This document shows positions 1 through 43,200 of a stretch of 64,000 bases of DNA, piece after piece. Within the stretch, counting starts at the first letter, position 1, and the number at the start of each line of letters is the position of its first letter. The notes below the pieces were generated by a model that saw only the letters and a list, made by a program, of their open reading frames with translations, was not told the origin of the DNA and did no database searches. The stretch spans positions 122,934 through 186,933 of the forward strand of contig DASWNW010000038.1 of NCBI GenBank assembly GCA_036399015.1, read 5' to 3'. Both the position numbers and the translations under genes were made by a program. This stretch comes from Thermoanaerobaculia bacterium. GTDB lineage: Bacteria > Acidobacteriota > Thermoanaerobaculia > Gp7-AA8.

Positions 1-2026
<2,026 letters not shown>

Positions 2027-2043: not shown

Positions 2044-2200
2044 AGCACCGTGGGGGTTTTCTCGGGGTTCCTCGGGTTCCTCGGGGTTCCTCGGGGTTCC
2101 TCGGGTTCCTCGGGGTTCCTCGGGGTTCCTCGGGGTTCCTCGGCGAATGGTGCTGGTCTACCCGAGGAACTCCGAGGAACTCCGAGGAACCCGAGGAACC
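2044..2200. repeat. Family-A hairpin element. About 10 tandem GGGTTCCTCG units, an 18-nt loop, then about 4 tandem CCGAGGAAC units.
   Basis: The units are directly visible. The left arm is the reverse complement of the right arm. It lies between the HK start (2026) and the stop of the upstream NTase gene (2202). Confidence 0.8.
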
Positions 2201-2201
2201 G

Positions 2202-3164
2202 TCAGATCGCAACCCTTTCGCCGGAAACGATCAACTGATCCCGATACTCCCCTTCGGTCAGCGAAACCCCATGCGCGACGATGCAGCGCTCCAGCGTCAC
2301 GCCGGAGGCGATGTGGCAGTCGTCCCAGACGACGGAGTCGCGCACGTCTCCCTCGATCGTCGTGCGCGCGCCGATGACCGAGCGCGCCACGCTGCCGCGC
2401 GCGGTTTCGTGCAGCAGCGAATCGCCGTCGAGCCGCGAGCCGGGGACGGGCGCGAGCGCGCCGCGCAGCGTTTCGTCGAGCAGCGCGCGGGAGGCGGCGA
2501 CGTAGCGCTGCGGCGTCCCGATGTCGAACCAGAGGCCGTCGTCGACGACGCCCGCTAGCTTCTCGCGGCCCGAGTCGGTGAGCGGCATGTACGCGTGCTC
2601 GACGATCCCGGAGAACTCCTTCTCGGGAAGGTGGTCGAAGACGCGCGTGCTGATGACGTGCGACCCGGCGAACATCATCGCCTCGCCGGTGCCCTTGCCG
2701 AAGCCGGTGATCTGCCCCCGGTCGAAGTAGACGGGCGTGAACTTGTCGTTCGGCGGCGGGGTGCGCATCGTCAGCGCGGCGATAGCGTCCATGGCGCGTC
2801 GCGCTTCGCGCAGCGCGTCCCAGCGGGGGAACTGCACGGTGTCGCCGTTGACGAGGAAGAACTCCTCCTCGCCCGCGAGCTGCGGGCGCACGCGCCGGAT
2901 GCCGCCGCCGGTGCCGAGGATCTCCTCCTCGCGGGAGAAGAAGAACTCCGCCCTGCCGGCGTATTCGTCGGCGAGATAGCGCTCCAGCGGCTCGGGGAGG
3001 TGGTGCAGGTTGACGATCAGGTCGCGCACGCCCGCGGCGAGGAACGACTCCACCGCCCAGGCGATCAGCGGCCGGTTGAGCAGCGGCACCATCGGCTTCG
3101 GCAGCGTGTTCGTGACGGGGCGGAGGCGCGTGCCGAAGCCCGCGGCGAGGATCATCCCTTTCAT
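2202..3164 (-). CDS. Sugar-phosphate nucleotidyltransferase (NTP_transferase fold with a C-terminal left-handed beta-helix). It is similar to mannose-1-P guanylyltransferase or MurU.
   Basis: The N-terminal motif is MKGMILAAGFGTRLRPVTNTLPKPMV (G-x-G-T-R-L). The start overlaps the upstream CYTH stop in an ATGA junction. The longer 537-aa ORF is an artefactual N-terminal extension overlapping the CYTH gene. Confidence 0.75.
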   Translation of the reverse strand: MKGMILAAGFGTRLRPVTNTLPKPMVPLLNRPLIAWAVESFLAAGVRDLIVNLHHLPEPLERYLADEYAGRAEFFFSREEEILGTGGGIRRVRPQLAGEEEFFLVNGDTVQFPRWDALREARRAMDAIAALTMRTPPPNDKFTPVYFDRGQITGFGKGTGEAMMFAGSHVISTRVFDHLPEKEFSGIVEHAYMPLTDSGREKLAGVVDDGLWFDIGTPQRYVAASRALLDETLRGALAPVPGSRLDGDSLLHETARGSVARSVIGARTTIEGDVRDSVVWDDCHIASGVTLERCIVAHGVSLTEGEYRDQLIVSGERVAI

Positions 3165-3727: not shown

Positions 3728-3815
3728 GTAAATTGTGGTCGGTTGTCGGTTGTCGGTTGTCCGCGGTGTCTCGCCTGGTCAAAGCTCCCCAGACAACTGA
3801 CAACTGACAACGCAA

Positions 3816-7092: not shown

Positions 7093-7536
7093 ATGCTCGC
7101 CGCCTCGGCGGCGTTTCGCGCCGCGGGTAACCCGACCGTGGCCGCCGACGTGGTCGGCTCGATGCTCACCCGCTGGCACTACATCGCCCTCGCCGCGCCG
7201 CTCGCGCTCTTCGCGATGGAGCTGCGCCGCGTCCGCCGCGCGCTGCTGATCCTGCTCTTCGCCTCGGTGGTGCTGGCGGCGGCGCAGTCGTTCGTCGACC
7301 TCCGCATCCGCGCGATCCGCAACACCTCGCCGGTGCCGGTCTCGGAGCTCGGCCGCGAAGACCCGGTGCGCCGCCGCTTCGGGATGCTGCACGGGTTATC
7401 GATGATGCTGCTCGCCCTGCAGGCCGTCGCCGCGGGCGTGGTCGTCGCGGCGCCGCACCATCGCCCCGCCGAGAGCAGCGAGCGCGGCGAGGAGCGCGGC
7501 GGTGAGGACGTTCACCCGGAACGCGCTGACGAATGA
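7093..7536 (+). CDS. Small hypothetical integral membrane protein (DUF4149-like, about 4 TM).
   Basis: The hydrophobic helices are in frame immediately after mtnA. The start codon is uncertain. Its 3' end overlaps the convergent MFS gene by about 140 bp, so it may be shorter or spurious. Confidence 0.35.
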   Translation: MLAASAAFRAAGNPTVAADVVGSMLTRWHYIALAAPLALFAMELRRVRRALLILLFASVVLAAAQSFVDLRIRAIRNTSPVPVSELGREDPVRRRFGMLHGLSMMLLALQAVAAGVVVAAPHHRPAESSERGEERGGEDVHPERADE

Positions 7537-8958
7537 CTGCTTCACCGCCCGCTCCACGCGTGTCTTCGTCGCCGCGTCGACGCCCGCGGGCGGACGCGCG
7601 TCGGCGAGCCTGATCGCCTGCGCCTGCATCGCCTGACGCACCGCCGGCGGCGCGGCGCGCAGGTTCCGCTCGAGCTCGCGCCCGAACACGAAAACGGCCA
7701 TCGCGCCGAAGACAGCGATCGACAGCAGCCCCGCCGCACGCGCCACCGCGTTGTTGATCCCCGAGGCGGCGCCGGAGTAGCGCTCGTCTTCGATCGAGGT
7801 CATGACGGTCGCGGTCAGCGGAGCGACGGTCACCGACATACCGATGCCGAGGACCAGCACGCCGGGGAAGAAGGTCGTCCAGTACGTCCCGCCGATCGAC
7901 GGCAGCGCCAGCAGCGCGAATCCGGCCGCGGCGATGAGCGGCCCGGCGATCAGCGGCAGCCGCGCGCCGATTCGATCCGCGAGCGCGCCGGTCCAGCGCG
8001 AGAGCAGCGACATCGTTGCCACGAACGGCAGGAACGCCGCGCCCGCGGCGGCGGGCGAGTAGTCCTGCACCTGGATGAGGTTGAACGGCAGCAGGAACGT
8101 CGCCGCGGAGAGCGCCGCGTAGAGGAGCAGTGTGAGCACGTTCGCCGCGGTGAAGGAGCGCGAGCGGAAGAGCGACAGCGGGACGATCGGATTCGCGGCG
8201 CGGCGCTGCACGAAGACGAACGCGATCAGCGCCGCCACTCCCGCGATCCCCACCACCGGCATGTGCTCGATGACCGCGTACGTCACCGCGCCGAGACCGA
8301 GGGTGATCAGCAGCGTGCCGAGCCAGTCGATGGAGCCGGCGTTCTCCCGCTTCGAAGCCGGCACGTGCCGCCACACCGCCCACAGCACCACCGCGGCGAT
8401 CGGCACGTTGATGTAGAAGACCGCGCGCCACGACCACGACTGCACCAGGAATCCGCCCAGGAGCGGCCCGGCGATGATGGCGAGCGACGTGAGCGCCGAC
8501 CATGTGCCGATGGCGCGGCCGCGCTCCTCGCGCGGGAAGGTCTCGTTGATGATGGCGAGGCTCCCGGGGACGAGCAGCGCCGCGCCGACGCCCTGCAGCG
8601 CTCGCGCGGCGATCAGCGAGAGCGGACCGGGGGCCGCGCCGCACGCGACCGAGGCGACGGCGAACGTGAGCACGCCGAAGGCGAAGACGCGCACGCGTCC
8701 CAGCCGGTCGCCGAGCGAGCCGCCGGCGAGGATGAGCGCGGAGAGGACCAGCAGGTACGAGTCGACGATCCACTGCGCGTCGTCGACGCCGGCGCGCAGC
8801 TCCGTCTGCATCACCGGCAGCGCGACGTTGATCACCGTCGTGTCGATGAACGCCATGGCCGATCCGAGGATCGTTGCCGCCAGCGTCCACCGTTGACGGG
8901 GCGTCGCCGGGTTCCTCGGCGTTCCTCGGAGTTCCTCGGCGACCGCGGTATCGGACAT
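7396..8958 (-). CDS. MFS transporter, DHA2/EmrB-like (14-TM drug:H+ antiporter family).
   Basis: The profile shows 14 TM helices. An MFS motif, LGDRLGRVRVF, is present. The start could instead be 9003. Either way, the first 15-30 codons are the translation of a family-A hairpin repeat. Confidence 0.75.
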   Translation of the reverse strand: MSDTAVAEELRGTPRNPATPRQRWTLAATILGSAMAFIDTTVINVALPVMQTELRAGVDDAQWIVDSYLLVLSALILAGGSLGDRLGRVRVFAFGVLTFAVASVACGAAPGPLSLIAARALQGVGAALLVPGSLAIINETFPREERGRAIGTWSALTSLAIIAGPLLGGFLVQSWSWRAVFYINVPIAAVVLWAVWRHVPASKRENAGSIDWLGTLLITLGLGAVTYAVIEHMPVVGIAGVAALIAFVFVQRRAANPIVPLSLFRSRSFTAANVLTLLLYAALSAATFLLPFNLIQVQDYSPAAAGAAFLPFVATMSLLSRWTGALADRIGARLPLIAGPLIAAAGFALLALPSIGGTYWTTFFPGVLVLGIGMSVTVAPLTATVMTSIEDERYSGAASGINNAVARAAGLLSIAVFGAMAVFVFGRELERNLRAAPPAVRQAMQAQAIRLADARPPAGVDAATKTRVERAVKQSFVSAFRVNVLTAALLAALAALGGAMVRRRDDHARGDGLQGEQHHR

Positions 8959-8996
8959 TCCCGAGGAACCCGAGGAACCCGAGGAACTCCGAGGAA
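8899..8996. repeat. Family-A hairpin element. It has 3 GTTCCTCGG units, a loop, then 4 CCGAGGAAC units.
   Basis: It uses the same unit as 2044-2200 and 32301-32406. It lies at the 5' end of the MFS gene and 10 bp from the stop of the M16 peptidase. Confidence 0.8.
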
Positions 8997-9006
8997 CCTT
9001 CATCGA

Positions 9007-10386
9007 TCAACTCACGGCGAGCATGTTTCCGTCGATGTCCAGCTCGTGCACCGGGAAGCCGAGCGATCCGAGCGGCTCGCGGATCTGCGACGCGTTGCCG
9101 ACGATCACCACCAGCACGCGGTCGGGGTCGAGGTACTTCTCGGCGACGCGGGTGATCTCGTCCTTCGACACCGCGGCGATGTTCTCGCGGTAGCGGTCGA
9201 AGTAGTCCTCCGGCAGGCCGTAGAGCTCCATGTCCACGAGGCGCCCCGCTAGGTCGGCCGCGGTCTGCACCGTGGCCGGGAACACGCCCATGAGGTAGCT
9301 CTTCACGTCGTCCAGCTCGCGGTCCTCGATGTCGCCGGTGCGGATGCGCCGCAGTTCGGACAGCATCTCGTTGACCGACTCGCGCGTCACCTCGTTGCGC
9401 ACCGGAGCGGCGATGACGAACGGGCCGGCCTGGCGGCGGAAGGCGAACTGCGACCGGGCGCCGTAGGTGTAGCCGTGGCGCTCGCGGAGATTGAGGTTGA
9501 TGCGCGAGTTGAAGACGCCGCCGAAGACGGCGTTCATGACCGCGAGCGGGAAGTAGTCCTCGCAGGAGCGCGGCACGCCGAGGTGGCCGACGCGGATTTC
9601 CGACTGCACGGCCTGCGGACGGTCGACGACGTAGATGCGCGACGCGTCGATCGGACGGGGCGCGACGGTCGGGCGCGGCGGCTCGGGGCCGGTCTGCCAG
9701 TCGGCGAGCGCGCGCGTCACCAGCTCGACCGCCGCCGCGGCGTCGATGTCGCCGGAGACAACCACCGAGCTGTGGTTCGGGATGTAGTGCTGGCGGTAGA
9801 ACGTCCGCACGTCGTCCGCCGTGATGCGGGCGACGCTCTCGGCGTTTCCGCCGACGGAGTTGCCGTACGCGCCGTTGCCGTAGAGCAGGCTGGCGAAACG
9901 CTTGCCGGCGATGGCGCCGGGATCGTTGCGCTGCTGGAGGATGTCGTTCAGCCGCTCGGCGCGGACCCGTTCCAGCCCGTCCTCCGGCAGCGTGGCGCGC
10001 GCGGTGACGTCGCCGAAGATCGACATGGCCGGCTCGCTGTTGCGACTGAGGACGTCGAAGGAGATGTAGGTCGCGTCCCAGTCCGCCCCCGTCCCCAGCG
10101 CGCCGCCCAGCAGCCCGACGTCCTCGGCGATCCGGATCGCGTCGCGCGAACCGGCGCCCTCGTCGAGCAGGTCGGCGACGAGCGACGCCAGCCCGGCGCT
10201 CTGCGCGGTGTCGTGGTCGGCGCCGGAGCGGATCAGCGCGCGCAGCGACACCAGCGGCGCGTTCCGGTTCTCCGTGACGAGCACGCGCAGCCCGTTGGGC
10301 AGCGTGGCGCGGGTGATGTGGGGAAAGTGATAGGGGCGCGGGGCGCTCGGCTGAGGGGCGGCGCTACGGTCGATTGTCGTGGTCAT
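9007..10386 (-). CDS. M16-family (pitrilysin/insulinase) peptidase subunit lacking the HxxEH zinc motif. It is a likely non-catalytic partner.
   Basis: 459 aa with the M16 fold pattern. No HxxEH motif was found by eye. It sits in tandem with an HxxEH-containing M16 gene. Confidence 0.8.
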   Translation of the reverse strand: MTTTIDRSAAPQPSAPRPYHFPHITRATLPNGLRVLVTENRNAPLVSLRALIRSGADHDTAQSAGLASLVADLLDEGAGSRDAIRIAEDVGLLGGALGTGADWDATYISFDVLSRNSEPAMSIFGDVTARATLPEDGLERVRAERLNDILQQRNDPGAIAGKRFASLLYGNGAYGNSVGGNAESVARITADDVRTFYRQHYIPNHSSVVVSGDIDAAAAVELVTRALADWQTGPEPPRPTVAPRPIDASRIYVVDRPQAVQSEIRVGHLGVPRSCEDYFPLAVMNAVFGGVFNSRINLNLRERHGYTYGARSQFAFRRQAGPFVIAAPVRNEVTRESVNEMLSELRRIRTGDIEDRELDDVKSYLMGVFPATVQTAADLAGRLVDMELYGLPEDYFDRYRENIAAVSKDEITRVAEKYLDPDRVLVVIVGNASQIREPLGSLGFPVHELDIDGNMLAVS

Positions 10387-10398
10387 TGCGCTCTCAAA

Positions 10399-10455
10399 CG
10401 AATGAAGAAGGGCGTCGCTCCCGATTCGAAATTCTTCATTCGAAATTCTTCATTC
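10399..10455. repeat. Family-B hairpin element. The arms are CGAATGAAGAA and TTCGAAATTCTTCATTCGAAATTCTTCATTC.
   Basis: A perfect inverted repeat is visible between the two M16 genes. It overlaps the last 2 bp of ORF 10454-11707. Confidence 0.75.
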
Positions 10456-11707: not shown

Positions 11708-11734
11708 CGGAGGGGGAGTTCTATCACGACCACA

Positions 11735-11819
11735 CGAATGAAGAATTTCGAATTTCGAATGAAGAATGGGCCCCCGCCGAACGCAACTTCTTCATTCTTC
11801 ATTCGAAATTCTTCATTCG
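11735..11819. repeat. Family-B hairpin element. The arms are CGAATGAAGAATTTCGAATTTCGAATGAAGAA and its reverse complement.
   Basis: It has 32-bp arms and a 21-nt GC-rich loop. It lies in the divergent region between the M16 peptidase start (11707) and the kinase start (11849). Confidence 0.8.
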
Positions 11820-11848
11820 CACGCCTTCTGCCTTTATCCTTTCGCCCC

Positions 11849-12490: not shown

Positions 12491-12516
12491 GTGAACGGAC
12501 CGGGACGGGGATCGTA

Positions 12517-12598
12517 GGGAACGCGGAACGCTGAACACGGAACGATGAACCGCCCCAAGCGAGAGCTCATCGTTCACCGTTCATCCTTCATCGTTCAC
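12517..12598. repeat. Family-C hairpin element. It has tandem GAACG(A/C)TGAAC units, a loop, then tandem GTTCATCGTTC units.
   Basis: The inverted repeat is visible, with an imperfect inner unit. It sits 30 bp upstream of the panB start. Confidence 0.7.
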
Positions 12599-12629
12599 TC
12601 CGCCCTCTGCTCGTGCCACGGAGGAGTCA

Positions 12630-22467: not shown

Positions 22468-22564
22468 CCGGCACGGCCGGCGGCGCTGGTTGCTCCGCCG
22501 GTGCACGTACGGCCACTCCGTCGGTGCGTTCTGCCGCGCAGGCTCCTAGCCCTCCGCTCGCGAG

Positions 22565-23010
22565 GTCACCCGACGATCCATTGATCGTCACCCACGTTCA
22601 CCCCATCGCAGGTGATGATCCGCGCATCGCCGCGCGACGATCCGCGCGCGCGTTCCCGACGATCCGGTGGACATCTGCTGATGTCCATCGCCAGGAACCC
22701 GGCGATCGCGTCATCGCGCCGGACGATCCTCCGGTCGTCACGGACGTCGAGCGGATCGTCGCCGGTCGATCCACCCCATCGCCGCCCCTCGATCCACTCA
22801 TCGTCGACCATGTGCTCCCACATCGCCGCCGGCCCCGGTTCGACGACACTCACGATCCGCCGATCGTCGGTTCGCCGCGCCTCGATCGTCGCCTCTCGAT
22901 GCGATGGAGGTGAGGTGATGTCCGCAGGATCGCCGGGCGACCTCGACTTGGGGCGAGGTGGCGATGTGCGGATCGTCGACCGGCGCGACACCGTCGGCAC
23001 GCGACCATCA
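22565..23010. promoter_or_regulatory. Non-coding array of ACGATC-N3-5-GATCGT inverted-repeat motifs. It holds about 17 GATC sites in about 450 bp.
   Basis: Counted by eye: GATC is roughly 10-fold over-represented for this base composition. About 6 imperfect palindromic copies are present, such as CGACGATCCATTGATCGTCA. Confidence 0.5.
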
Positions 23011-23025
23011 CGATAAGATCGCGGA

Positions 23026-23586
23026 GTGATCGAAGCCCTACGGATCGTGGCGCTCCTCGGGTTAGCGCTCACCGCGTGCAGCTCGCTGCCGCCGAATGCG
23101 CTTCGTCCATCAACCCCAGGCGCTCTCCAGCGCGAGTTTCAACGCTCCCACGGACCGGCAACAGAAGCCGAGTACGCGCAGTGTGAGACACCATACGAGA
23201 ACACGACTGGCGTAACCGAAATCGCCATCGAGAGAACGTCCTGCTACGGCTACTGCCCGACCTACACCCTCCAGCTGTTCAGCGATGGCCGCGTTGCGTA
23301 CGTCGGTCAGGCTTCCGTCAGATTCATCGAGCCGCGAAGCGGGAAGCTGGATGAGTACTTGTTCACGAAGCTCGCACGGACGGCGGTTGGAATCGGATTC
23401 TTCGAGTTGCAGGACCGATATACGTGTGCGGTGACCGACAACCCGACTGTCTACGTCGCCGTAGTCCGGAACGGAACGCGAAAGGTCATCGAACACTACG
23501 CGCCCGAATGGACCGGCCCGGCCGCTCTCCGTCTGTTTGAAGAGGCCATCGACAACGTAGAGCCGTACATCGAGTGGGTGAGGTGA
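23026..23586 (+). CDS. Lipoprotein (DUF6438-like), lower GC.
   Basis: A signal peptide with a lipobox (LALTAC) is present. Conserved cysteines occur at ...SCYGYCPTY. Confidence 0.6.
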   Translation: MIEALRIVALLGLALTACSSLPPNALRPSTPGALQREFQRSHGPATEAEYAQCETPYENTTGVTEIAIERTSCYGYCPTYTLQLFSDGRVAYVGQASVRFIEPRSGKLDEYLFTKLARTAVGIGFFELQDRYTCAVTDNPTVYVAVVRNGTRKVIEHYAPEWTGPAALRLFEEAIDNVEPYIEWVR

Positions 23587-23759
23587 CTCCTCGCCGCGCC
23601 GTCATGAAGCGGTGGCCGTTCAACCTCGCCGCCGCGTTCTCGCTGCTGCTGTCGCTCACCATCGCCGCGGCATGGGCGACGAGTTACGCGCAGCCGCGCG
23701 ACTGGCATCTACTCGGACTCGCGCACTCAGCGGGTTTGACGCGGGTTGATCTCGACCGC

Positions 23760-24022
23760 CGCGGGGTCGTCGTGATTCGAGTCGAAGCCGACGTGCGCGA
23801 CCTCCTCGACTACCTCTGCGGCGTATCCGTTCATCAGGAAGTGTTCTTTCTCTGGCGTCCCTTTCTGCGTGACGCCGCGGACGACATGATCGTGGAGTTG
23901 GCGGTTGCCGCGGGTGTGAAGTCATCGTGACGCACAATGTCAGAGACTTCCGCGGTGCCGAACGTTTCGGCCTGCGGATCGTGACGCCAGCCGTTATTTT
24001 CAGGTCAACTTTGAGGTGAACA
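23760..24022 (+). pseudogene. Remnant of a PIN-domain toxin (TIGR00305-like). Only the C-terminal half is present, and it is frameshifted.
   Basis: ...FLWRPFLRDAADDMIVELAVAAGV continues in the -1 frame as VIVTHNVRDFRGAERFGLRIVTPAVIF. No PIN N-terminal aspartates lie upstream. The upstream part of ORF 23574-23930 is unrelated. Confidence 0.5.
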
Positions 24023-24023
24023 G

Positions 24024-24299
24024 ATGGGTGCCTTGAACCTTCGTCTTCCAGAATCTCTTCACCGCAAGCTCAGCGAAGTGGCGGAACGTGAAGGGATTTC
24101 CATCAATCAGCTCATCAATTCCGCAGTCGCTGAAAAGATGTCCGCCTTGATGACAGAGGAGTATCTCGCGGCACGTGCCAAGCGGGGGAGCCGCCGGAAG
24201 TTTGATGCCGTTCTCGCTAAAGTACCGGATGTCGAGCCACATGCAACAGATCGACTTCCCGCGCCCAGTCGGAAGCGGGCTGATAAAAAGGCTGGCTAG
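24024..24299 (+). CDS. HicB-family-like ribbon-helix-helix antitoxin.
   Basis: MGALNLRLPESLHRKLSEVAEREGISINQLINSAVAEKMSALMTEEYL matches the short RHH HicB-like antitoxins. Confidence 0.6.
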   Translation: MGALNLRLPESLHRKLSEVAEREGISINQLINSAVAEKMSALMTEEYLAARAKRGSRRKFDAVLAKVPDVEPHATDRLPAPSRKRADKKAG

Positions 24300-24512
24300 C
24301 GCGGAACCGGCCGCACAGCTGGCGTGAGATCCGTCAGGCGCATAGACCATCGCCCCCCTACACCGGGTCCGGGGGCCGGTCAGTGTGCAGGCGCGGATGA
24401 TCATGTCACCCCACTGGGCGATCGTCCTCCTCGGCCTGCCACTGCCGCTGCTGTGGCTGCGCGTCAGGCGCCGTTCGCGATCGCGACCCGTCAGCCCCCG
24501 TTGAGGGCGCCG

Positions 24513-24722
24513 CTACCGACGTCGTGCCGGCTCGACGCTGTCGGGAACACGCTCCGCGGCTTCTTTCGCGCGCGCGATCCACGCCGGCCGCTTCGACTTG
24601 GACGGCGGCACGGTGACCGGCTCGCCCCACGCGGACGGATCCTGCGCGTCCGCGATCACGAGCTCGTCGAGCTCCGTCTCCGTCAGTTCCGGCTTCTTCG
24701 GGCGTCGTTTCACAGCTGCCAT
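24513..24722 (-). CDS. Putative BrnA-like antitoxin, apparently lacking the C-terminal RHH.
   Basis: It lies immediately downstream of the BrnT-like gene. The ELTETELDELV...RPAWIARAKEAAERV pattern is loosely BrnA-like. Confidence 0.3.
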   Translation of the reverse strand: MAAVKRRPKKPELTETELDELVIADAQDPSAWGEPVTVPPSKSKRPAWIARAKEAAERVPDSVEPARRR

Positions 24723-24729
24723 CCAGTAA

Positions 24730-24993
24730 TTACGCGCATCGTCTGATGCCAGAGACGTGCACGATCAACATGAGAGGACGACCAGCGTCGGTCCGGCCGA
24801 GGAGCTGGTACCGGCTCGCTCCGTGCCGCCTGTGGTTCGGGCGGACAACGAAGCCGTTCCAGATCAACTCTGCCGCCTCCCACGCCTCCACACGATGCGC
24901 CGCGAGCTTGTCAGCATCGTAGTCGATCTCCCATTCGGCGGGGTCGAAGCGATGCCAGTCGACCACGGCCTTAATTAGAGGCGCCAGTTGCAC
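24730..24993 (-). CDS. BrnT-like (DUF497) ribonuclease toxin, possibly C-terminally truncated.
   Basis: The pattern YDADKLAAHRVEAWEAAELIW...LLGRTDAGRPLMLIVHV resembles the DUF497 core. This is a weak by-eye call. Confidence 0.4.
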   Translation of the reverse strand: MQLAPLIKAVVDWHRFDPAEWEIDYDADKLAAHRVEAWEAAELIWNGFVVRPNHRRHGASRYQLLGRTDAGRPLMLIVHVSGIRRCA

Positions 24994-25314
24994 CGGTGGT
25001 ATTCCTCGTGCGTCTCGATCCAGAACCAGAGGATGCCGTCGGGTGCAGTGACGGGTGCTGCGAATTCGCTTTCAACAGCTCGAAGTTCGCACGAGCGAGT
25101 CAGAACTTGAGGGACGCGTGATGACTCAAATCTCGCGCGTCTCACCGCGGCGGTGTTCGGCGACCTGGGTGAATCTTAGAAGAGCGCCGATCGCGCCGGC
25201 TCGGGGGCGGTCGTTGCTGGCGCGACCATCGTCTCGCGCGGCTGCGGCCTCTCCACGTGATTACGTGAGGTGCGGAGGTCCGGCATCGTTCCTTCGGCGG
25301 GTGGGATCGCCCCC

Positions 25315-32000: not shown

Positions 32001-32273
32001 CACCATCAGCCGGCGGATCGCGGCATCGTCATGCGGGACGTCGGGCAGCTCGAGCAGGCGCGCCATCGGCTGCTTGCTCTCGGCCGCGCCGCGCAGGCGC
32101 TGCAGGGCGGCGTAACCGCTCACCGCGATGAGGTGGAAACGCTCGCGATCGAGCAGGTCGACCGCCTCCTCCTCGGAGCCTGCAACCACCGGTGTGAAGC
32201 TGAGCGAGCGCGCGACGTCCGCCGGCGTCCGTGCTGCGTTCTCGCCAGCGACGATGAGGACCTGATTGACCAT
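29007..32273 (-). CDS. Multi-sensor hybrid-type histidine kinase. It has an N-terminal receiver-like domain, GAF, several PAS, GAF, HisKA and HATPase_c.
   Basis: H-box LSVASHELRTPL and G-box GGLGLGLYIARAIVEAHDGEITVESEEGSGSTF are present. 1088 aa. The plus-strand 1151-aa ORF is antisense. Confidence 0.85.
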   Translation of the reverse strand: MVNQVLIVAGENAARTPADVARSLSFTPVVAGSEEEAVDLLDRERFHLIAVSGYAALQRLRGAAESKQPMARLLELPDVPHDDAAIRRLMVRYLAPASSDRARFTTEERYRFLSKILETFTGTLELREVLRRIVAVTREEFGADRAWLLHPVHEQAEYAKVAFTVAAPGFEEQIADKGPVRLDASQALIRRAMESPRPVPIADGDPALDPELAKRFRIKSALIQVLRPREEEPWAFGIHQCDALRDWTEEEIALFAEIGRYATLALNNTLLHNRAIREMAKVNAILDQIPEAAAIYDAAGKLERMNAAAQREPSVLFTPDPEGRLRNMQHRYIDGSPLSTDELPSMRALQGDVVKSDYLVHDSRTDDDRVVNLKAAPIRDDKARIIGSVVLSRDVTEERQSAERESWRRRRAECLANLGLEMVAMAPSFDNLDDPAARIAQAVAGTVRIYLYHSTTGMLEMVGYASVDQALAQYRPFFAARPFRPGEGLAGTVFQIGRPLLFYEVRGDALLDFARDEEERAVKRELREQSLIAYPIESWGERIGAVVISQSDPRRNFDAEDLEFARAVSERIGAASHIHRLTTIAQDGHRAAEELARREVDARVRFEGVLESAPIGIAVISADELRFELANARFIDYVSQFGRISFDTKLIGLRAAEVLPAEVEKILKQVAESGEPRVDEELLVGEAYVNRIISAARGRFSGITQSLTVLVQDVTEQVRARREIENLATLMAERSARLDSILGSMTDGLWVYDGDGTVVDVNQAALNMFGLASRAEAIEHGSFERLHFRDAEGRAVPRSDMPYARALAGQTVPDYLAVAKHLITGRDLDLSIAAAPIESRGIVGAVLVIRDITALQELDRKKDEFLSVASHELRTPLTTIKGYTQLLAQTVDDLEPHERATYINAVLGEIERMMGLISELLDVSRIETNRLQIHPQTIQWLPFIEGRISAFRVQHPARLIHFDVNAPETTVVADPDRMRQVVDNLLSNALKYSPEGSDIDVRVVSEDSHVATSVTDHGIGIPRDEIPQLFERFHRARNVSSRYYGGLGLGLYIARAIVEAHDGEITVESEEGSGSTFTMRLPVGTLAS

Positions 32274-32300: not shown

Positions 32301-32406
32301 GGGTTCCTCGGAGTTCCTCGGTTCCTCGGAGTTCCTCGGGGCCGCCGCCGAGCTCGCAGCACGCGCCGAGGAACTCCGAGGAACCCCGAGGAACTCCCGA
32401 GGAACC
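32301..32406. repeat. Family-A hairpin element (GTTCCTCGG units, 26-nt loop, CCGAGGAAC units).
   Basis: It lies in the divergent region between the HK start (32273) and the mazG ATG (32411). The right arm ends 4 bp before the mazG ATG. Confidence 0.8.
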
Positions 32407-32410
32407 TACA

Positions 32411-33202
32411 ATGCGCCCCATGTCGAAACGCACCTTCGATGAGCTCGTAAAACTCATGACGCGATTGCGCGCCCCCGGCGGCTGTCCCTGGGACCGCAAG
32501 CAGACGCTTCCGGACCTGAAGGCGTACGTCATCGAGGAGGCCTACGAGGTCGTCGACGCCATCGACCAGGACGACCGGCGCGCGCTGGCGGAGGAGCTCG
32601 GCGATTTCCTGCTGCAGGCGGTGTTCCTCGCCGAGATCACGCGCGAAGAGGGGACGTTCGACATCTACGACTCCATCACCGCCATCCACGACAAGCTGGT
32701 GCGCCGCCACCCGCACGTCTTCGGCGACGTCGAAGCGAACGACGCGGAACAGGTCCTGGTGAACTGGGAGAAGCTGAAGCAGGACGAGCGGAAGGCGGAG
32801 AACAAGAGCGTGCTCTCGGGCGTGCCGCAGTCGATGCCGGCGCTGCTGAAGGCGTCGCGGCTCACCGAAAAGGCGGCGCGTGTCGGATTCGACTGGCGCC
32901 GCACCGAGGACGTCTTCGACAAGATCGACGAAGAACTGGCCGAGCTGCGGGAGGCGGTCGCGAACGGCGACACCGCGCACATCCATGAGGAGATCGGCGA
33001 CCTGCTCTTCACGGTGGCGAACATCGCGCGCAAGGTGAACGTGAACCCCGAAGAGGCGCTGCAGTCGACGAACCGCAAATTCATGAGCCGGTTCGGGTCG
33101 ATGGAGTCGCGGGTGCGCGAGCGGGGGCAGAATCTCGACCAGCTCGAGCTCGAGGAGATGGACAAGCTGTGGGACGAGGCAAAAGCGGCGGAACGCGCCT
33201 GA
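32411..33202 (+). CDS. mazG: Nucleoside triphosphate pyrophosphohydrolase MazG.
   Basis: The motifs LRAPGGCPWDRKQT and EExYEV and the tandem MazG EEIGDLLF motif are present. Confidence 0.85.
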   Translation: MRPMSKRTFDELVKLMTRLRAPGGCPWDRKQTLPDLKAYVIEEAYEVVDAIDQDDRRALAEELGDFLLQAVFLAEITREEGTFDIYDSITAIHDKLVRRHPHVFGDVEANDAEQVLVNWEKLKQDERKAENKSVLSGVPQSMPALLKASRLTEKAARVGFDWRRTEDVFDKIDEELAELREAVANGDTAHIHEEIGDLLFTVANIARKVNVNPEEALQSTNRKFMSRFGSMESRVRERGQNLDQLELEEMDKLWDEAKAAERA

Positions 33203-34144: not shown

Positions 34145-34269
34145 GCGTGGGATTCTAAGCCGGAGTGGCCGGTTGCTCGTTGCTGGTTGCTGGTTTCCTG
34201 CGAGGCAGTGCCTCCGGCGGAAGCCGTCGAGTCACGAGCAACCAGCAACGGCAATAGAATCCACCCACC

Positions 34270-40241: not shown

Positions 40242-43200
40242 TCAGCTCAACCGCATCCGGGTGACCGCGGCCGCCGCGAGCAGGCCCGCCAGGATCATCA
40301 GGCCCCACTCCGACGCCGTCGGGACCGCCGCGACGTGCGCCGAGGCGACGACCACCGACGCGCTGGAGGAGTTGTTGGACGTCACCGCCTCCGACTCGTC
40401 GCTGTCGACGGTGGCGACGTTCATCATCGTGCCCACGCCCATGGCGCGGCCGGTCATCGTGATCGTGATCGAAGCGCCGTTCAGCATCGTGCCGAGCGCG
40501 CACGTCACCGTCGTGGTTCCGCTGCACGTGCCCAGCGTCGACGTGACGCCGGTCAACTGGAAGTTCGCCGGCAGCGGGTCGTTGAGCACCACGTTCGTCG
40601 CGGTGTCGGGGCCGTTGTTGGTGACGACCAGCGTGAAGTTGAACGTGTCGCCGACCAGCATGCTGGTGAGGGAGGCCGACTTCACGATGCCCAGGTCGAC
40701 CACCGGTCCGCCGGCGTCGCCGCCGTTGCCGTCGTCGTCGGTGTTGTCGTCGACGTCGGGGTCGGGCTCGGTCGCAGTGACCGTGGCCACGTTGTCGAAC
40801 GCGCCGGCGGCGTCGATCGTCGCCGTGACCGTTATGGTGGTGCTCGCACCGACGGCAAGGCTGGCGATGGTGCACGGCAGCGCGGCGCAGCCGCTGCCGC
40901 TCACGCCGGTGATGGTGAGGTTCGTCGGCGTGTCGGTCACCTGGATGTTCGTCGCCGGGGACGGTCCGGCGTTCGCGACCACGAGCGTGTAAGTGAGCTC
41001 CTGGCCGAGGCCGAACGGTCCGGGGGTGACGAGGGTCTTGACCACCGAGACGTCGGCCGAGGGGCCGGTGAAGCCGCCGTTGTCGTCCTCGTCGTCGTTG
41101 TCCTCGCCGTCGGGGTCGGGCTCGGTGGCGGTGGCCGCGGCCACGTTGTCGAACGCGCCGGCGGCGTCGATGGTCGCCGTCACGGTGATGGTGGTGCTCG
41201 CTCCCATGGCGAGGCTGGCGATGGTGCACGGCAGCGCGGCGCAGCCGCTGCCGCTCACGCCGGTGATGGTGAGGTTCGTCGGCGTGTCGGTCACCTGGAT
41301 GTTCGTCGCCGCCGACGGTCCGGCGTTCGCGACCACGAGCGTGTACTGGATCGATTGACCGATGCTGAAGGGGCCGACGGTGATCAGCGTCTTCACCAGC
41401 GAAACGTCCGCCGAGGGGCCGGCGATGTCGCCGTCGTCATCGGTGTTGTCGTCCACGTCGGGGTCAGGCTCGGTCGCCGTCGCGGTCGCGGTGTTGCTGA
41501 ACGCGCCGGCGGCGTTGACTGTCGCCGTCACGTTGATGGTGGCGTTCGCGCCCATGGCGATGCTGGGGATGGTGCACGGCAGCGCCGCACAGCCGCTGCC
41601 GCTCACGCCGGTGATGGTCATGTTCGCCGGCGTGTCTGTCACGGTGACGCTCGTGGCGGTTGAGGGGCCGGCGTTCGCCACGATGAGGGTGTACTGGATC
41701 GCCTGACCGATGCTGAACGGGCCGGCGGTGATCAGTGTCTTCACCAGTGAGACATCCGCCGAGGGGCCGGCGATGTCGCCGTCGTCATCGGTGTTGTCGT
41801 CCACGTCGGGGTCAGGCTCGTTCGCCGTCGCGGTCGCGGTGTTGCTGAACGCGCCGGCGGCGTTGACGGTCGCCGTCACGTTGACGGTGGCGCTCGCGCC
41901 CATGGCGATGCTGGGGATGGTGCACGGCAGCGCGGCGCAGCCGCTGCCGCTGACGGCGGTGACGGTCATGTTCGACGGCGTGTCCGTCACCTCGACCGAC
42001 GTGGCCGTGGAGGGGCCGGCGTTCGCCACGACGAGCGTGTACTGGATCGACTGACCGACGCTGAAGGGGCCGGCGGTGATCAGCGTCTTCACCAGCGAAA
42101 CGTCCGCGGACGGACCAGCGATGTCGCCGTCGTCATCGGTGTTGTCGTCCACGTCGGGGTCAGGCTCGGTCGCCGTCGCGGTCGCGGTGTTGCTGAACGC
42201 GCCGGCGGCGTTGAGCGTCGCCGTGACGTTGATGGTCGCGTTCGCGCCCATGGCGATGCTGGGGATGGTGCACGGCAGCGCGGCACAGCCGCTGCCGCTG
42301 ACGCTGGTGATGGTCATGTTCGACGGCGTGTCCGTCACCTCGACCTTGGTGGCGACGGAGGGGCCGGCGTTGGCCACTACGAGCGTGTACTGGATCGACT
42401 GGCCGGGGATGAAGGGGCCGGCAGTGATCAGCGTCTTCACCAGCGAGACGTCGGCCGAGGGGCCGGCGATGTCGCCGTCGTCATCGGTGTTGTCGTCCAC
42501 GTCGGGGTCAGGCTCGTCCGCGGTCGCGGTGGCGGTGTTGCTGAACGCGCCAGCGGCGTTGACCGTCGCCGTGACGTTGATGGTGGCGCTCGCGCCCATG
42601 GCGATGCTGGGGATGGTGCACGGCAGCGCGGCGCAGCCGCTGCCGCTGACGGCGGTGATGGTCATGTTCGCCGGCACGTCGGTCACGGCGACGCTCGTGG
42701 CCGTGGAGGGGCCGGCGTTCGCCATGACGAGGGTGTACTGGATCGCCTGACCGATGCTGAACGGGCCGGCGGTGATCAGTGTCTTCACCAGTGAGACATC
42801 CGCCGAGGGGCCGGCGATGTCGCCGTCATCATCGGTGTTGTCGTCCACGTCAGGGTCAGGCTCGTCGGCTGTCGCGGTGGCGGTGTTGCTGAACGCGCCG
42901 GCGGCGTTGACGGTCGCCGTCACGTTGATGGTGGCGCTCGCTCCCATGGCGATGCTGGGGATGGTGCAGGGCAGCGCGGCGCAGCCGCTGCCGCTCACGC
43001 TGGTGATGGTCATGTTCGCCGGCACGTCCGTCACCTCGACCGACGTGGCCGTGGAGGGGCCGGCGTTCGACACGACGAGCGTGTACTGAATCGACTGACC
43101 GACGGTGAAGGGGGCGGCGGTGATGAGCGTCTTCACCAGCGAGACGTCGGCCGAGGGGCCGGCGATGCCGCCGTCGTCATCGGTGTTGTCGTCCACGTCG

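What the first reader, a model, noticed from the sequence alone, without database searches (positions are those of the whole stretch)
2044..2200. Family-A hairpin elements built from tandem GGTTCCTCG units (3 copies in the window), some overlapping annotated start codons
The same architecture occurs three times: at 2044-2200, 8899-8996 and 32301-32406. Each copy has 3-10 tandem GGTTCCTCG units, an 18-26 nt GC-rich loop, and then 4 tandem CGAGGAACC units. It is a perfect hairpin of 30-90 bp arms, always with the pyrimidine arm first. All three copies sit at gene 5' ends. These are the two sensor-kinase starts and the MFS/mazG starts. The element is translated as the first 15-30 codons of the MFS ORF (MKVPRSSSGSSGSSG..EELRGTPRNP) and of the long mazG ORF. 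The real start codons may therefore lie downstream. The purine arm contains GAGGAA, which resembles a Shine-Dalgarno sequence. The structure is not a CRISPR array because it has no spacers. It also lacks the organisation of REP/BIME or MITE elements. It may be an undescribed class of structured intergenic repeat. Possible roles include regulation, acting as a recombination or transposase target, or an RNA element.
Basis: seen in the sequence. Interest (0 to 1): 0.65.

Follow-up and report, generated by a model that had tools for sequence, protein, structure and literature searches.

The report
Dispersed hairpin repeats behind stop codons
The three hairpins belong to a repeat family scattered through the genomes of uncultured soil Acidobacteria (class Thermoanaerobaculia); copies sit right after stop codons or in frame inside proteins, like the selfish REP elements of E. 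coli, rather than being switches for the neighbouring sensor-kinase genes.

Summary
GTTCCTCGG occurs 27 times in the window (about 1 expected), all in three clusters. Each cluster is a tandem array, a unique 18-26 nt loop, then the inverted array.

A pattern scan found the same architecture at more than 100 loci in 11 Thermoanaerobaculia species genomes:
- The order is always GTTCCTCGG arm, loop, CCGAGGAAC arm. The commonest form is 4+4 units, and unit spacing is 8, 9 or 10 nt.
- The two arms vary independently. Loops are unrelated between copies. There is no target-site duplication and no U-tract.
- Orthologous sites are filled in one species and empty in another.
- Copies sit a median of 5 nt after the adjacent gene's stop codon.
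- About 14% lie in frame inside genes, for example in MetH and Mfd.

There is no special link to sensor kinases or to gene 5' ends. Families built of 7-nt units with the same architecture share the window.

Best reading: a selfish dispersed palindromic repeat that lives like REP/REPIN and Rickettsia palindromic elements. Its arms have the tandem-unit build already reported in Xanthomonas and Geobacter. How it spreads is unknown. I call it a new variant of a known kind, of moderate interest.

The parts
2056..2143 (.). Element 1, F arm: one degenerate unit (GTTTTCTCGG) plus 8 exact GTTCCTCGG units, spaced 9-10 nt
2144..2161 (.). Element 1, unique loop (18 nt)
2162..2199 (.). Element 1, R arm: 4 CCGAGGAAC units. 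It ends 2 nt from the stop codon (2202-2204, minus strand) of the NTP-transferase gene
2024..2026 (-). ATG of the GAF histidine kinase, 29 nt beyond element 1. The start is confirmed by the orthologue in L152
8911..8939 (.). Element 2, F arm: 3 GTTCCTCGG units
8940..8960 (.). Element 2, unique loop (21 nt). It contains an in-frame ATG (8956-8958, minus strand), which the JGI gene call uses as the MFS start
8961..8997 (.). Element 2, R arm: 4 CCGAGGAAC units, 9 nt from the stop codon (9007-9009, minus strand) of the M16 peptidase gene
9001..9003 (-). ATG just outside element 2, in frame with the MFS gene through the whole element. It is one of the two possible MFS starts
32303..32339 (.). Element 3, F arm: 4 GTTCCTCGG units. 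It lies 29 nt from the ATG (32271-32273, minus strand) of the PAS/GAF histidine kinase
32340..32365 (.). Element 3, unique loop (26 nt)
32366..32405 (.). Element 3, R arm: 4 CCGAGGAAC units. The last GAGGAA lies 7 nt upstream of the mazG ATG
32411..32413 (+). Likely real mazG start codon, 5 nt after element 3

Best explanation
The three hairpins are copies of a dispersed, non-coding, selfish repeat family of Thermoanaerobaculia (Acidobacteriota).

Build (shown). A copy is two arrays of a 9-10 nt module, (A/G)GTTCCTCGG, in inverted orientation around a short unique centre.

Dynamics (shown unless marked).
- Copies are gained and lost at individual sites during species divergence.
- Array lengths change locally. 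I infer replication slippage, because variant units are duplicated next to each other.
- Copies survive only where they do little harm: directly after stop codons, or after terminator T-runs; in the rest of the intergenic space; and, in frame, in tolerant linkers of proteins.

Effect (inferred by analogy with E. coli REP elements). A copy is transcribed with its neighbours and folds into a long hairpin at the 3' end of the upstream reading frame. There it can protect the upstream mRNA, attenuate read-through, or stall terminating ribosomes. Some copies have been absorbed into genes. Element 2 supplies the start codon and the N-terminal extension of the MFS transporter. Element 3 supplies a Shine-Dalgarno-like GAGGAA for mazG.

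Spread (not shown). The enzyme that moves the copies is not identified. The absence of a target-site duplication and the hairpin form fit an enzyme that acts on single-stranded DNA, of the REP-associated or IS200 type, better than a classical cut-and-paste (DDE) transposase.
For: The window's own genome and two further metagenome contigs also carry copies.

Conserved architecture: 121 of 121 clusters run F arm, loop, R arm, and 4+4 units is the commonest form. Unit spacing is 8, 9 or 10 nt (88, 164 and 298 cases). Loops have a median of 22 nt and range 0-50.

Gain and loss at orthologous sites:
- L078 is filled where L092 is empty, and the reverse holds at a second site 2 kb away.
- L125 is filled where L042 is empty.
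- The site of element 1 is a 52-nt empty spacer in the syntenic relative L152.
- The MetH linker is filled in 4 of 121 orthologues.

Propagation within genomes: each genome has its own variant unit spread over many loci (GTACCTCGG in U12109, GTGCCTCGG in U3224 and U3271). GTACCTCGG co-occurs in both arms of an element (Fisher p = 5e-5 overall, 0.023 within U12109).

No gene-specific role: copies fall in co-directional, divergent and convergent spacers at 48, 22 and 17, against 53%, 30% and 17% of the intergenic bases.

In-frame copies: 14 lie inside continuous reading frames. Six of these are verified single-protein architectures: MetH, Mfd, a Ser/Thr kinase, ABC_tran_2, a GT2 glycosyltransferase and LigD PrimPol.

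Position after stop codons:
- The distance to an adjacent 3' gene end has a median of 5 nt (interquartile range 3-9), and 68 of 79 are within 15 nt.
- In co-directional spacers, 41 of 47 copies are nearer the upstream stop than the downstream start (p = 2e-7).
- Convergent spacers with a copy have a median of 11.5 nt left over, against 40 nt in copy-free ones.
- In E. coli, about half of REPs lie within 15 nt of a stop codon and stall ribosomes there (PMC12306157, citing its reference 17).

Strong folds.
Against: - No transposase, REP-associated or otherwise, was found in the window, next to half-elements, or recurring among about 740 predicted proteins in 1.1 Mb of flanks.
- Loops are unrelated between copies. 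Only 1 related pair was found among 2620 comparisons, which is unlike any normal copy-and-paste element.
- Arm lengths correlate weakly (r = 0.20). Unit spacings are mirrored between arms no more often than chance (43% against 40%). This is odd if whole elements are copied.
- The module is not itself a palindrome and carries no GTAG, so it is not a classical REP.
- Nothing here shows transcription, hairpin formation in the cell, or any effect on expression.
- The gene contexts rest on my own crude gene caller. Stop codons are exact; start codons are approximate.
Confidence: 0.68

Rival explanations
1. The arrays are binding-site arrays for a DNA-binding protein, either a global regulator or a nucleoid protein. 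This was proposed, without experiments, for the paired tandem repeats of Geobacter metallireducens. Each unit would bind one protein and the two arrays would bend or bridge the DNA.
For: Exact units are kept while loops and flanks are free to vary. The commonest spacing is 10 nt, close to one helical turn. Geobacter offers a precedent (PMC2700814). Several unit families coexist in the window, as one might expect for several regulators.
Against: Spacings of 8, 9 and 10 nt are mixed within single arrays, so helical phasing is not kept. Copies show no preference for promoter-bearing spacers and hug stop codons instead. Fourteen percent lie inside reading frames. Sites are filled or empty between close species, and a syntenic relative lacks all families.
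Confidence: 0.1
2. The hairpins are host-selected RNA elements: U-tract-less transcription terminators or 3'-end stabilisers. They would be kept because they work, with their repetitiveness secondary.
For: They sit 2-10 nt after stop codons. In convergent gene pairs they make up almost the whole spacer, and 12 of 16 have both stop codons within 12 nt. Predicted stems are very stable. The same spacers hold a hairpin repeat of another family in other species.
Against: There is no U-tract: 12 of 218 outward flanks have 5 or more T in the first 10 nt. Where a canonical terminator exists, the element lies beyond its T-run (L042, L063, L078). A quarter of copies lie between divergent genes, where no 3' end exists. 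In-frame copies cannot be terminators. Orthologous sites are often empty. This reading does not explain how one 9-mer reaches hundreds of sites. It is best seen as a secondary use, not an origin.
Confidence: 0.2
3. [quoted passage not shown]
For: The copies have inverted arms, are about 90 bp long and are dispersed.
Against: Direct repeats at the borders are no more frequent than in shuffled flank pairs. There is no conserved interior. Arm lengths are variable and unequal. No related insertion sequence with these ends was seen.
Confidence: 0.04
4. The arrays are scars of templated synthesis at DNA breaks. Both 3' ends of a break are extended with tandem modules copied from a short template, and the ends are then joined through filler DNA that becomes the loop.
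For: The order of arms is fixed. Unit counts and spacings are independent in the two arms. Loops are unrelated. There is no target-site duplication. One-armed arrays exist. At the site of element 1, about 27 nt present in the empty orthologue are missing. Several module families occur together, and none occurs in a close relative.
Against: Variant units are duplicated in tandem and shared between the two arms of one element, which points to local slippage and co-inheritance of arms. The inner ends are semi-conserved, AGGGG...CCCCT. No reverse transcriptase or template locus was seen. No bacterial precedent is known to me.
Confidence: 0.07
5. It is an assembly artefact or chimeric joins at repeats.
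For: Short-read contigs often break at these elements (L149, and several locus ends).
Against: The sequence is identical in independent JGI and ENA assemblies, with syntenic genes on both sides. The same architecture appears in more than 100 loci from many projects. In-frame copies keep long reading frames intact.
Confidence: 0.01

Closest known systems
REP / REPIN / BIME elements of Enterobacteria and Pseudomonas (REPIN: PMC3116915; position relative to stop codons: PMC12306157)
   Same: They are short, very abundant, non-coding and mostly extragenic. The functional unit is an inverted doublet that folds into a hairpin, with a less conserved spacer. Copies are spread over extragenic space without regard to gene function. 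Many lie within 15 nt of a stop codon. No target-site duplication is expected.
   Different: A REP is itself a 20-40 nt imperfect palindrome with a conserved GTAG foot. Here the module is 9-10 nt, is not palindromic and is repeated in tandem. REPIN spacing is fixed (71 bp for the GI group), whereas here the loop is 0-50 nt and unrelated between copies. No REP-associated transposase was found. Fourteen percent of copies are inside genes.
Inverted pairs of tandem heptamer arrays in Xanthomonas (GGGAATC; Rehm et al. 2015, PMC4692102)
   Same: The architecture is the same: a tandem array of a short unit on one strand and a second array on the other strand close by, in convergent orientation. There are 70-75 such pairs per genome. 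They are mostly intergenic and their function is unknown.
   Different: The unit is 7 nt and G-rich, and was studied as a quadruplex former. Many arrays there are unpaired. In-frame protein insertions and stop-codon adjacency were not reported.
Paired tandem-repeat sites of Geobacter metallireducens, classes 1-3 (Aklujkar et al. 2009, PMC2700814)
   Same: These are pairs of sites on opposite strands. Each site has 3-5 tandem repeats of 7-9 nt (TCTCCGTS[Y], MTYCTGA), and the distance between the two sites varies. There are tens of copies, and they are specific to one species of the genus. The same paper reports another multicopy heptanucleotide-repeat family both within and between genes.
   Different: They were interpreted, without tests, as IHF/HU-type regulator sites. 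Insertion sequences sit at a fixed distance from some of them, which was not seen here.
Rickettsia palindromic elements (Ogata et al. 2000; from my own knowledge, not read here)
   Same: They are palindromic repeats that insert in frame into protein-coding genes and are translated as extra peptide segments at tolerated positions.
   Different: They have a conserved full-length consensus of about 100-150 bp, not tandem modules with a free centre. They are AT-rich and occur in intracellular bacteria.
Foldback transposons of Drosophila and other eukaryotes (Galileo/Foldback: PMC3573991 title and abstract only; details from my own knowledge)
   Same: Their terminal inverted repeats are built of short tandem subrepeats. 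Arm lengths vary and are unequal, and the middle is variable.
   Different: They are eukaryotic and kilobase-sized. They have a known transposase and make target-site duplications.
TAACTGA direct heptamer repeats of Beggiatoaceae and cyanobacteria (PMC4679880)
   Same: They are short tandem units dispersed over many intergenic regions, and they are lineage-restricted.
   Different: They are direct arrays only (1 inverted case in 170), oriented towards the downstream start codon. Many singletons exist.

Membership tests
REP / REPIN (moved by a REP-associated tyrosine transposase) | The unit is a 20-40 nt imperfect palindrome with a conserved GTAG-type foot | tested here: not met
   The unit is 9-10 nt and not self-complementary. 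TAG-type triplets near the borders are explained by the neighbours' stop codons. They show at most a slight excess at 5'-facing flanks (36% against 24%, p = 0.013) and none at intragenic flanks (21% against 16%).
REP / REPIN (moved by a REP-associated tyrosine transposase) | An inverted doublet forms a hairpin, and the spacer is less conserved than the ends | tested here: met
REP / REPIN (moved by a REP-associated tyrosine transposase) | A cognate transposase gene flanked by the repeats exists in the same genome | tested here: inconclusive
   None was found in the window or in 1.1 Mb of flanks. Such a gene is usually single-copy, and whole genomes could not be searched.
REP / REPIN (moved by a REP-associated tyrosine transposase) | Extragenic, and spread over extragenic space without regard to gene function | tested here: met
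   Context classes follow the intergenic bases available. However, 14 of about 100 copies are intragenic.
MITE (DDE transposase) | Target-site duplication of fixed length | tested here: not met
   Border direct repeats equal the shuffled expectation. Filled-versus-empty pairs show none.
MITE (DDE transposase) | Conserved internal sequence and a related autonomous element | tested here: not met
   Loops are unrelated. No insertion sequence lies between split arms.
Inverted tandem short-unit arrays (Xanthomonas, Geobacter type) | A tandem array of a 7-9 nt unit, with a second array of the same unit on the opposite strand nearby at variable distance | tested here: met
   definitions from PMC4692102 and PMC2700814. 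The unit here is 9-10 nt. Heptamer families with the same build also occur in the window.
Rickettsia-type palindromic elements | In-frame insertion into protein-coding genes | tested here: met
   MetH, Mfd, a Ser/Thr kinase, ABC_tran_2, GT2 and LigD
Rickettsia-type palindromic elements | Conserved full-length consensus | tested here: not met
   Only the module is conserved.
Intrinsic (Rho-independent) terminator | A GC-rich hairpin followed by a U-tract | tested here: not met
   12 of 218 outward flanks are T-rich. The scan around element 3 finds no terminator-like site at the element.
CRISPR array | Direct repeats separated by unique spacers of similar length | tested here: not met
   The units are contiguous and in two inverted blocks.
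DNA uptake sequences | Mostly single copies scattered through genes and spacers | tested here: not met
   There are no singletons in 64 kb; all 27 copies are in arrays.
Known RNA families (Rfam 15) | A match at gathering score | tested here: not met
   Only one tRNA in the window reaches threshold.

The most novel reading that the evidence does not exclude
The hairpins are not transposed as whole elements. They would be made on the spot by a process not yet described in bacteria. An enzyme extends both 3' ends of a DNA break, or of an opened hairpin, with tandem 9-10 nt modules copied from a short template, in the manner of a telomerase, reverse transcriptase or primase-polymerase. The two arrays are then joined through filler DNA, which becomes the loop.

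One such machinery working with several templates would explain:
- the fixed order of arms;
- the independent unit numbers and spacings of the two arms;
- the unrelated loops;
- the lack of a target-site duplication;
- the one-armed copies;
- the coexistence of several module families in one genome, and their complete absence from a syntenic relative.
Probability: 0.08. Interest if true: 0.9.

Novelty: new variant of a known kind. Interest (0 to 1): 0.5.

Why it matters
For annotation:
- These elements break short-read assemblies.
- They create false N-terminal extensions (mazG) and real ones (the MFS transporter).
- They add 25-65 residue low-complexity inserts to core enzymes such as methionine synthase and Mfd in Thermoanaerobaculia genomes.

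For biology:
- The family combines three things usually discussed separately: REP-like residence just after stop codons, Rickettsia-like in-frame colonisation of proteins, and the tandem-unit inverted arrays noted but never explained in Xanthomonas and Geobacter.
- Exact modules with completely unrelated centres and independent arms do not fit ordinary copy-and-paste. The family, with its heptamer-based relatives in the same genomes, is therefore a good system for asking how short palindromic repeats without a known transposase spread.

Tried and rejected
- Viral contigs: 41 loci, all one-armed arrays with 9- or 12-nt spacing or single pairs, typical of coding repeats. None has the hairpin build.
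- Strain-level variation in unit number: every contig that encodes the window's own proteins is 100% identical to the window. A 21-mer from the flank of element 1 found nothing in the metagenome collection. This test could not be done.
- Reverse arm order (CCGAGGAAC arm first): 1 hit in the metagenome collection.
- My first gene caller was wrong where spurious 5' extensions overlapped real genes. It was replaced by best-suffix start choice.
- Target-site duplication, complementarity between the two flanks, and T-tracts are all at the shuffled expectation. Two or three copies are exceptions because they sit between two terminators.
- A stop-like triplet as target motif: rejected, because 5'-facing flanks show only a slight excess and intragenic flanks none.
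- Loop derived from target DNA: the filled-versus-empty pairs are too diverged (about 80-89%) to decide.
- A recurrent neighbouring gene as candidate transposase: the recurrent families are NtrC-type regulators, MacB/HlyD/ABC transport parts, ECF sigma factors, TonB and the like.
- Arm-length asymmetry relative to the direction of transcription: none.
- Rfam: no family matches.

Full report
**1. The observation.**
The three elements are as described. GTTCCTCGG occurs 27 times on both strands of the window, against 0.98 expected from dinucleotide-preserving shuffles, and every copy lies in one of three clusters. Tandem Repeats Finder reports the arrays with periods of 9-10.

| Element | F arm | Loop | R arm |
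|---|---|---|---|
| 1 | 2056-2143 (1 degenerate + 8 exact units) | 2144-2161 (18 nt) | 2162-2199 (4 units) |
| 2 | 8911-8939 (3 units) | 8940-8960 (21 nt) | 8961-8997 (4 units) |
| 3 | 32303-32339 (4 units) | 32340-32365 (26 nt) | 32366-32405 (4 units) |

Predicted RNA folds are -102, -71 and -90/-92 kcal/mol, with z-scores of -5.9 to -10.2. The stems are not perfect. The best complementary arms are 21-41 nt at 95-100%. Because unit spacing differs between the arms, the stems carry bulges.

The window is 100% identical to a 244,790-bp JGI metagenome contig and to an independent ENA assembly. A Logan contig breaks inside element 2. The elements are therefore not chimeric joins.

**2. Gene context in the window.**
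- Element 1 lies between the stop codon of an NTP-transferase gene (2202-2204, minus strand, 2 nt away) and the ATG of a GAF histidine kinase (2026).
- Element 2 lies 9 nt after the stop codon of an M16 peptidase gene (9007-9009) and ahead of an MFS transporter gene.
- Element 3 lies between a divergent PAS/GAF histidine kinase (ATG 32273) and mazG.

No transposase, reverse transcriptase or other mobility gene is present in the 64 kb, which holds housekeeping and regulatory genes. Rfam finds only a tRNA.

**3. The family elsewhere.**
I scanned one genome per species with the pattern of two F units, an 8-38 nt gap and one R unit. All came from Thermoanaerobaculia/Acidobacteriota metagenome-assembled genomes of 11 species. 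The window's own genome is not among them; the best flank match is 79%.

In these loci and the window:
- All 121 clusters of three or more exact units have the order F array, loop, R array.
- The commonest form is 4+4 units, with 1-12 units per arm.
- The module is (A/G)GTTCCTCGG, with spacing of 10 (298 cases), 9 (164) or 8 nt (88).
- Loops have a median of 22 nt (range 0-50). They often begin AGGGG and end CCCCT.
- Beyond three bases the flanks are random.

Viral contigs hold only one-armed coding repeats of the same 9-mer.

**4. What kind of repeat it is.**
- *The arms are nearly independent.* Unit numbers correlate weakly (r = 0.20). Spacings are mirrored in 43% of positions, against 40% expected.
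- *Loops are unrelated.* One related pair was found in 2620 comparisons, both members from one genome.
- *Borders are plain.* There is no target-site duplication, no excess of flank complementarity and no T-tract.
- *One-armed copies exist but are rare*.
- *Each genome has its own variant unit spread over many loci:* GTACCTCGG in SMAG_U12109, GTGCCTCGG in U3224 and U3271. Variants are often duplicated side by side. GTACCTCGG tends to occur in both arms of the same element.

This pattern shows continuing propagation or homogenisation within genomes. It also points to local slippage and to some co-inheritance of the two arms.

**5. Gain and loss.**
Orthologous sites differ between species.
- L078 carries a copy where L092 has none, and the reverse holds 2 kb away.
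- L125 is filled where L042 is empty.
- In the syntenic relative L152 (M16 peptidase 89% identical), the NTP-transferase and kinase genes are separated by 52 nt with no element. That 21-kb stretch carries no short-unit array of any family.
- The spacers that hold element 2 and its neighbours in the window hold palindromic repeats of other families in other species (L151, L153).

**6. Copies inside genes.**
Fourteen copies lie in continuous reading frames with coding signal on both sides. Pfam shows that six of these are ordinary single proteins interrupted at a linker or within a domain:
- methionine synthase, between the homocysteine and pterin domains;
- Mfd;
- a Ser/Thr kinase, just after the kinase domain;
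- an ABC_tran_2 protein;
- a GT2 glycosyltransferase, with a 66-residue insert;
- LigD primase-polymerase.

I compared 120 close MetH homologues with the L089 query.
- Most have the short linker TPESN.
- Four sequences, counting the L089 query, carry this family there.
- About 35 carry other palindromic families at the same spot.

The DNA of a filled and an empty MetH gene shows no duplication at the junction. The module has no stop codon in any of its six frames. About 89% of the window is called coding, yet only about 14% of copies lie in genes.

**7. Position relative to genes.**
Copies occur in co-directional, divergent and convergent spacers (48, 22, 17) roughly as the intergenic bases are shared out (53%, 30%, 17%). 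There is thus no tie to sensor kinases or to promoters.

Within a spacer the position is far from random.
- Where a copy faces a gene's 3' end, the stop codon is a median of 5 nt away (interquartile range 3-9; 68 of 79 within 15 nt).
- In co-directional spacers, 41 of 47 copies are nearer the upstream stop (median 5 nt) than the downstream start (median 42 nt; p = 2e-7).
- In convergent spacers the sequence left beside the copy has a median of 11.5 nt, against 40 nt in copy-free ones.
- Where a canonical terminator is present, the copy follows its T-run.
- Stop-like triplets are not significantly enriched at intragenic flanks, and only slightly at 5'-facing flanks. This is therefore not a target motif carried by the element.

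Elements 1 and 2 of the window fit this rule. In E. coli about half of REPs lie within 15 nt of a stop codon, where they stall terminating ribosomes (PMC12306157).

**8. Start codons.**
MFS orthologues start MTSQQRWTLTATILGSAMAF. The window encodes ATPRQRWTLAATILGSAMAF directly after element 2, with no start codon at that place. The start must therefore be ATG 9003, before the F arm, or the ATG in the loop (8958, which the JGI call uses). At least the R arm is translated.

For mazG, the ATG at 32411, 5 nt after element 3, fits the ENA gene call and the Pfam domain position. GAGGAA lies 7 nt upstream of it but is predicted to be paired in the stem.

**9. Other families with the same build.**
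The window holds five further elements made of tandem 7-nt units, a unique loop and the inverted array:
- 3733-3811 (GGTTGTC);
- 34168-34255 (GGTTGCT);
- 10398-10455 and 11733-11820 (GAATGAA/GAATTTC);
- 12515-12600 (GATGAAC-like).

The phenomenon is therefore wider than this one family.

**10. Comparison with what is known.**
- The architecture has been reported twice without explanation. Xanthomonas has 70-75 convergent pairs of GGGAATC arrays per genome (PMC4692102). Geobacter metallireducens has paired sites of 3-5 tandem 7-9 nt repeats at variable distance (PMC2700814).
- The lifestyle matches REP/REPIN elements: an inverted doublet, a less conserved spacer and a random spread in extragenic space (PMC3116915).
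- The in-frame copies recall the Rickettsia palindromic elements (my own knowledge).
- The family fails the defining tests for REP (no palindromic unit, no GTAG), MITE (no duplication, no conserved interior), intrinsic terminators (no U-tract), CRISPR and uptake sequences.
- A full-text search for the unit returned only unrelated papers among the 15 listed.

**11. Verdict.**
This is a real, abundant, lineage-wide selfish repeat family. It persists behind stop codons and in protein linkers, and it probably acts, where it acts at all, as an RNA hairpin at the 3' end of the upstream message. The way it spreads is unknown and does not look like ordinary copy-and-paste. That is the part worth following up.

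I rate it a new variant of a known kind, interest 0.5.

Noticed in passing
window 3733-3811: Another hairpin repeat of the same build, made of heptamers: (GGTTGTC)x3-4, a loop of about 30 nt, then (GACAACT)x3. It fills the whole spacer between the PGK stop codon (3816) and the start of the CYTH gene (3727). The syntenic relative L152 has 40 nt there and no repeat.
   Followed up: partly
window 34168-34255: A related heptamer family (GGTTGCT ... AGCAACC) around a unique loop of about 40 nt, between the divergent HhH-GPD glycosylase and urocanase genes.
   Followed up: no
window 10398-10455 and 11733-11820: Two copies of an AT-richer heptamer family (GAATGAA/GAATTTC, then TTCATTC/GAAATTC) flank the upstream M16 peptidase gene. 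In L151 the orthologue of the first spacer holds a GTTCCTCGG element instead.
   Followed up: partly
window 12515-12600: A fourth heptamer-based inverted array (GGAACGC/TGAACAC ... TCATCGT/TCACCGT) between the deoxynucleoside kinase and panB genes.
   Followed up: no
window 40242-50315 (minus strand): A 3358-residue reading frame containing 18 tandem copies of a 348-bp unit (85% matches). The part scanned, residues 1-1000 of the frame, matches DUF7933/DUF11-type repeat domains. It is probably a giant surface protein.
   Followed up: partly
window 7396-9003 compared with L152 11375-11900: The MFS transporter gene that follows element 2 is absent from the otherwise syntenic relative L152. So the gene itself has been gained or lost next to the repeat.
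   Followed up: no
MetH interdomain linker (L089 3234-3327; proteins P0001-P0120): The linker between the homocysteine and pterin domains of methionine synthase is a hotspot. About a third of close homologues carry inserts from several different palindromic repeat families there: VILSREDGEGS...ILRSAQDD, SLGMTRG repeats, and in P0029 five tandem 10-residue repeats followed by inverted ones.
   Followed up: partly
L151 3880-4115 and L153 2749-2868: The spacer orthologous to the site of element 2 contains other palindromic repeats: a long GTCATCC...GGATGAC-type palindrome in L151, and tandem GGTGTCA / TGACACC arrays in L153.
   Followed up: no
window 22470-25310: A stretch of about 3 kb in which my gene caller finds only three short, low-scoring reading frames, two of them without a Pfam match. 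It was not examined further.
   Followed up: no
L048 844-877: A one-armed array lies in frame in the C-terminal tail of a TatA/B-family protein.
   Followed up: partly
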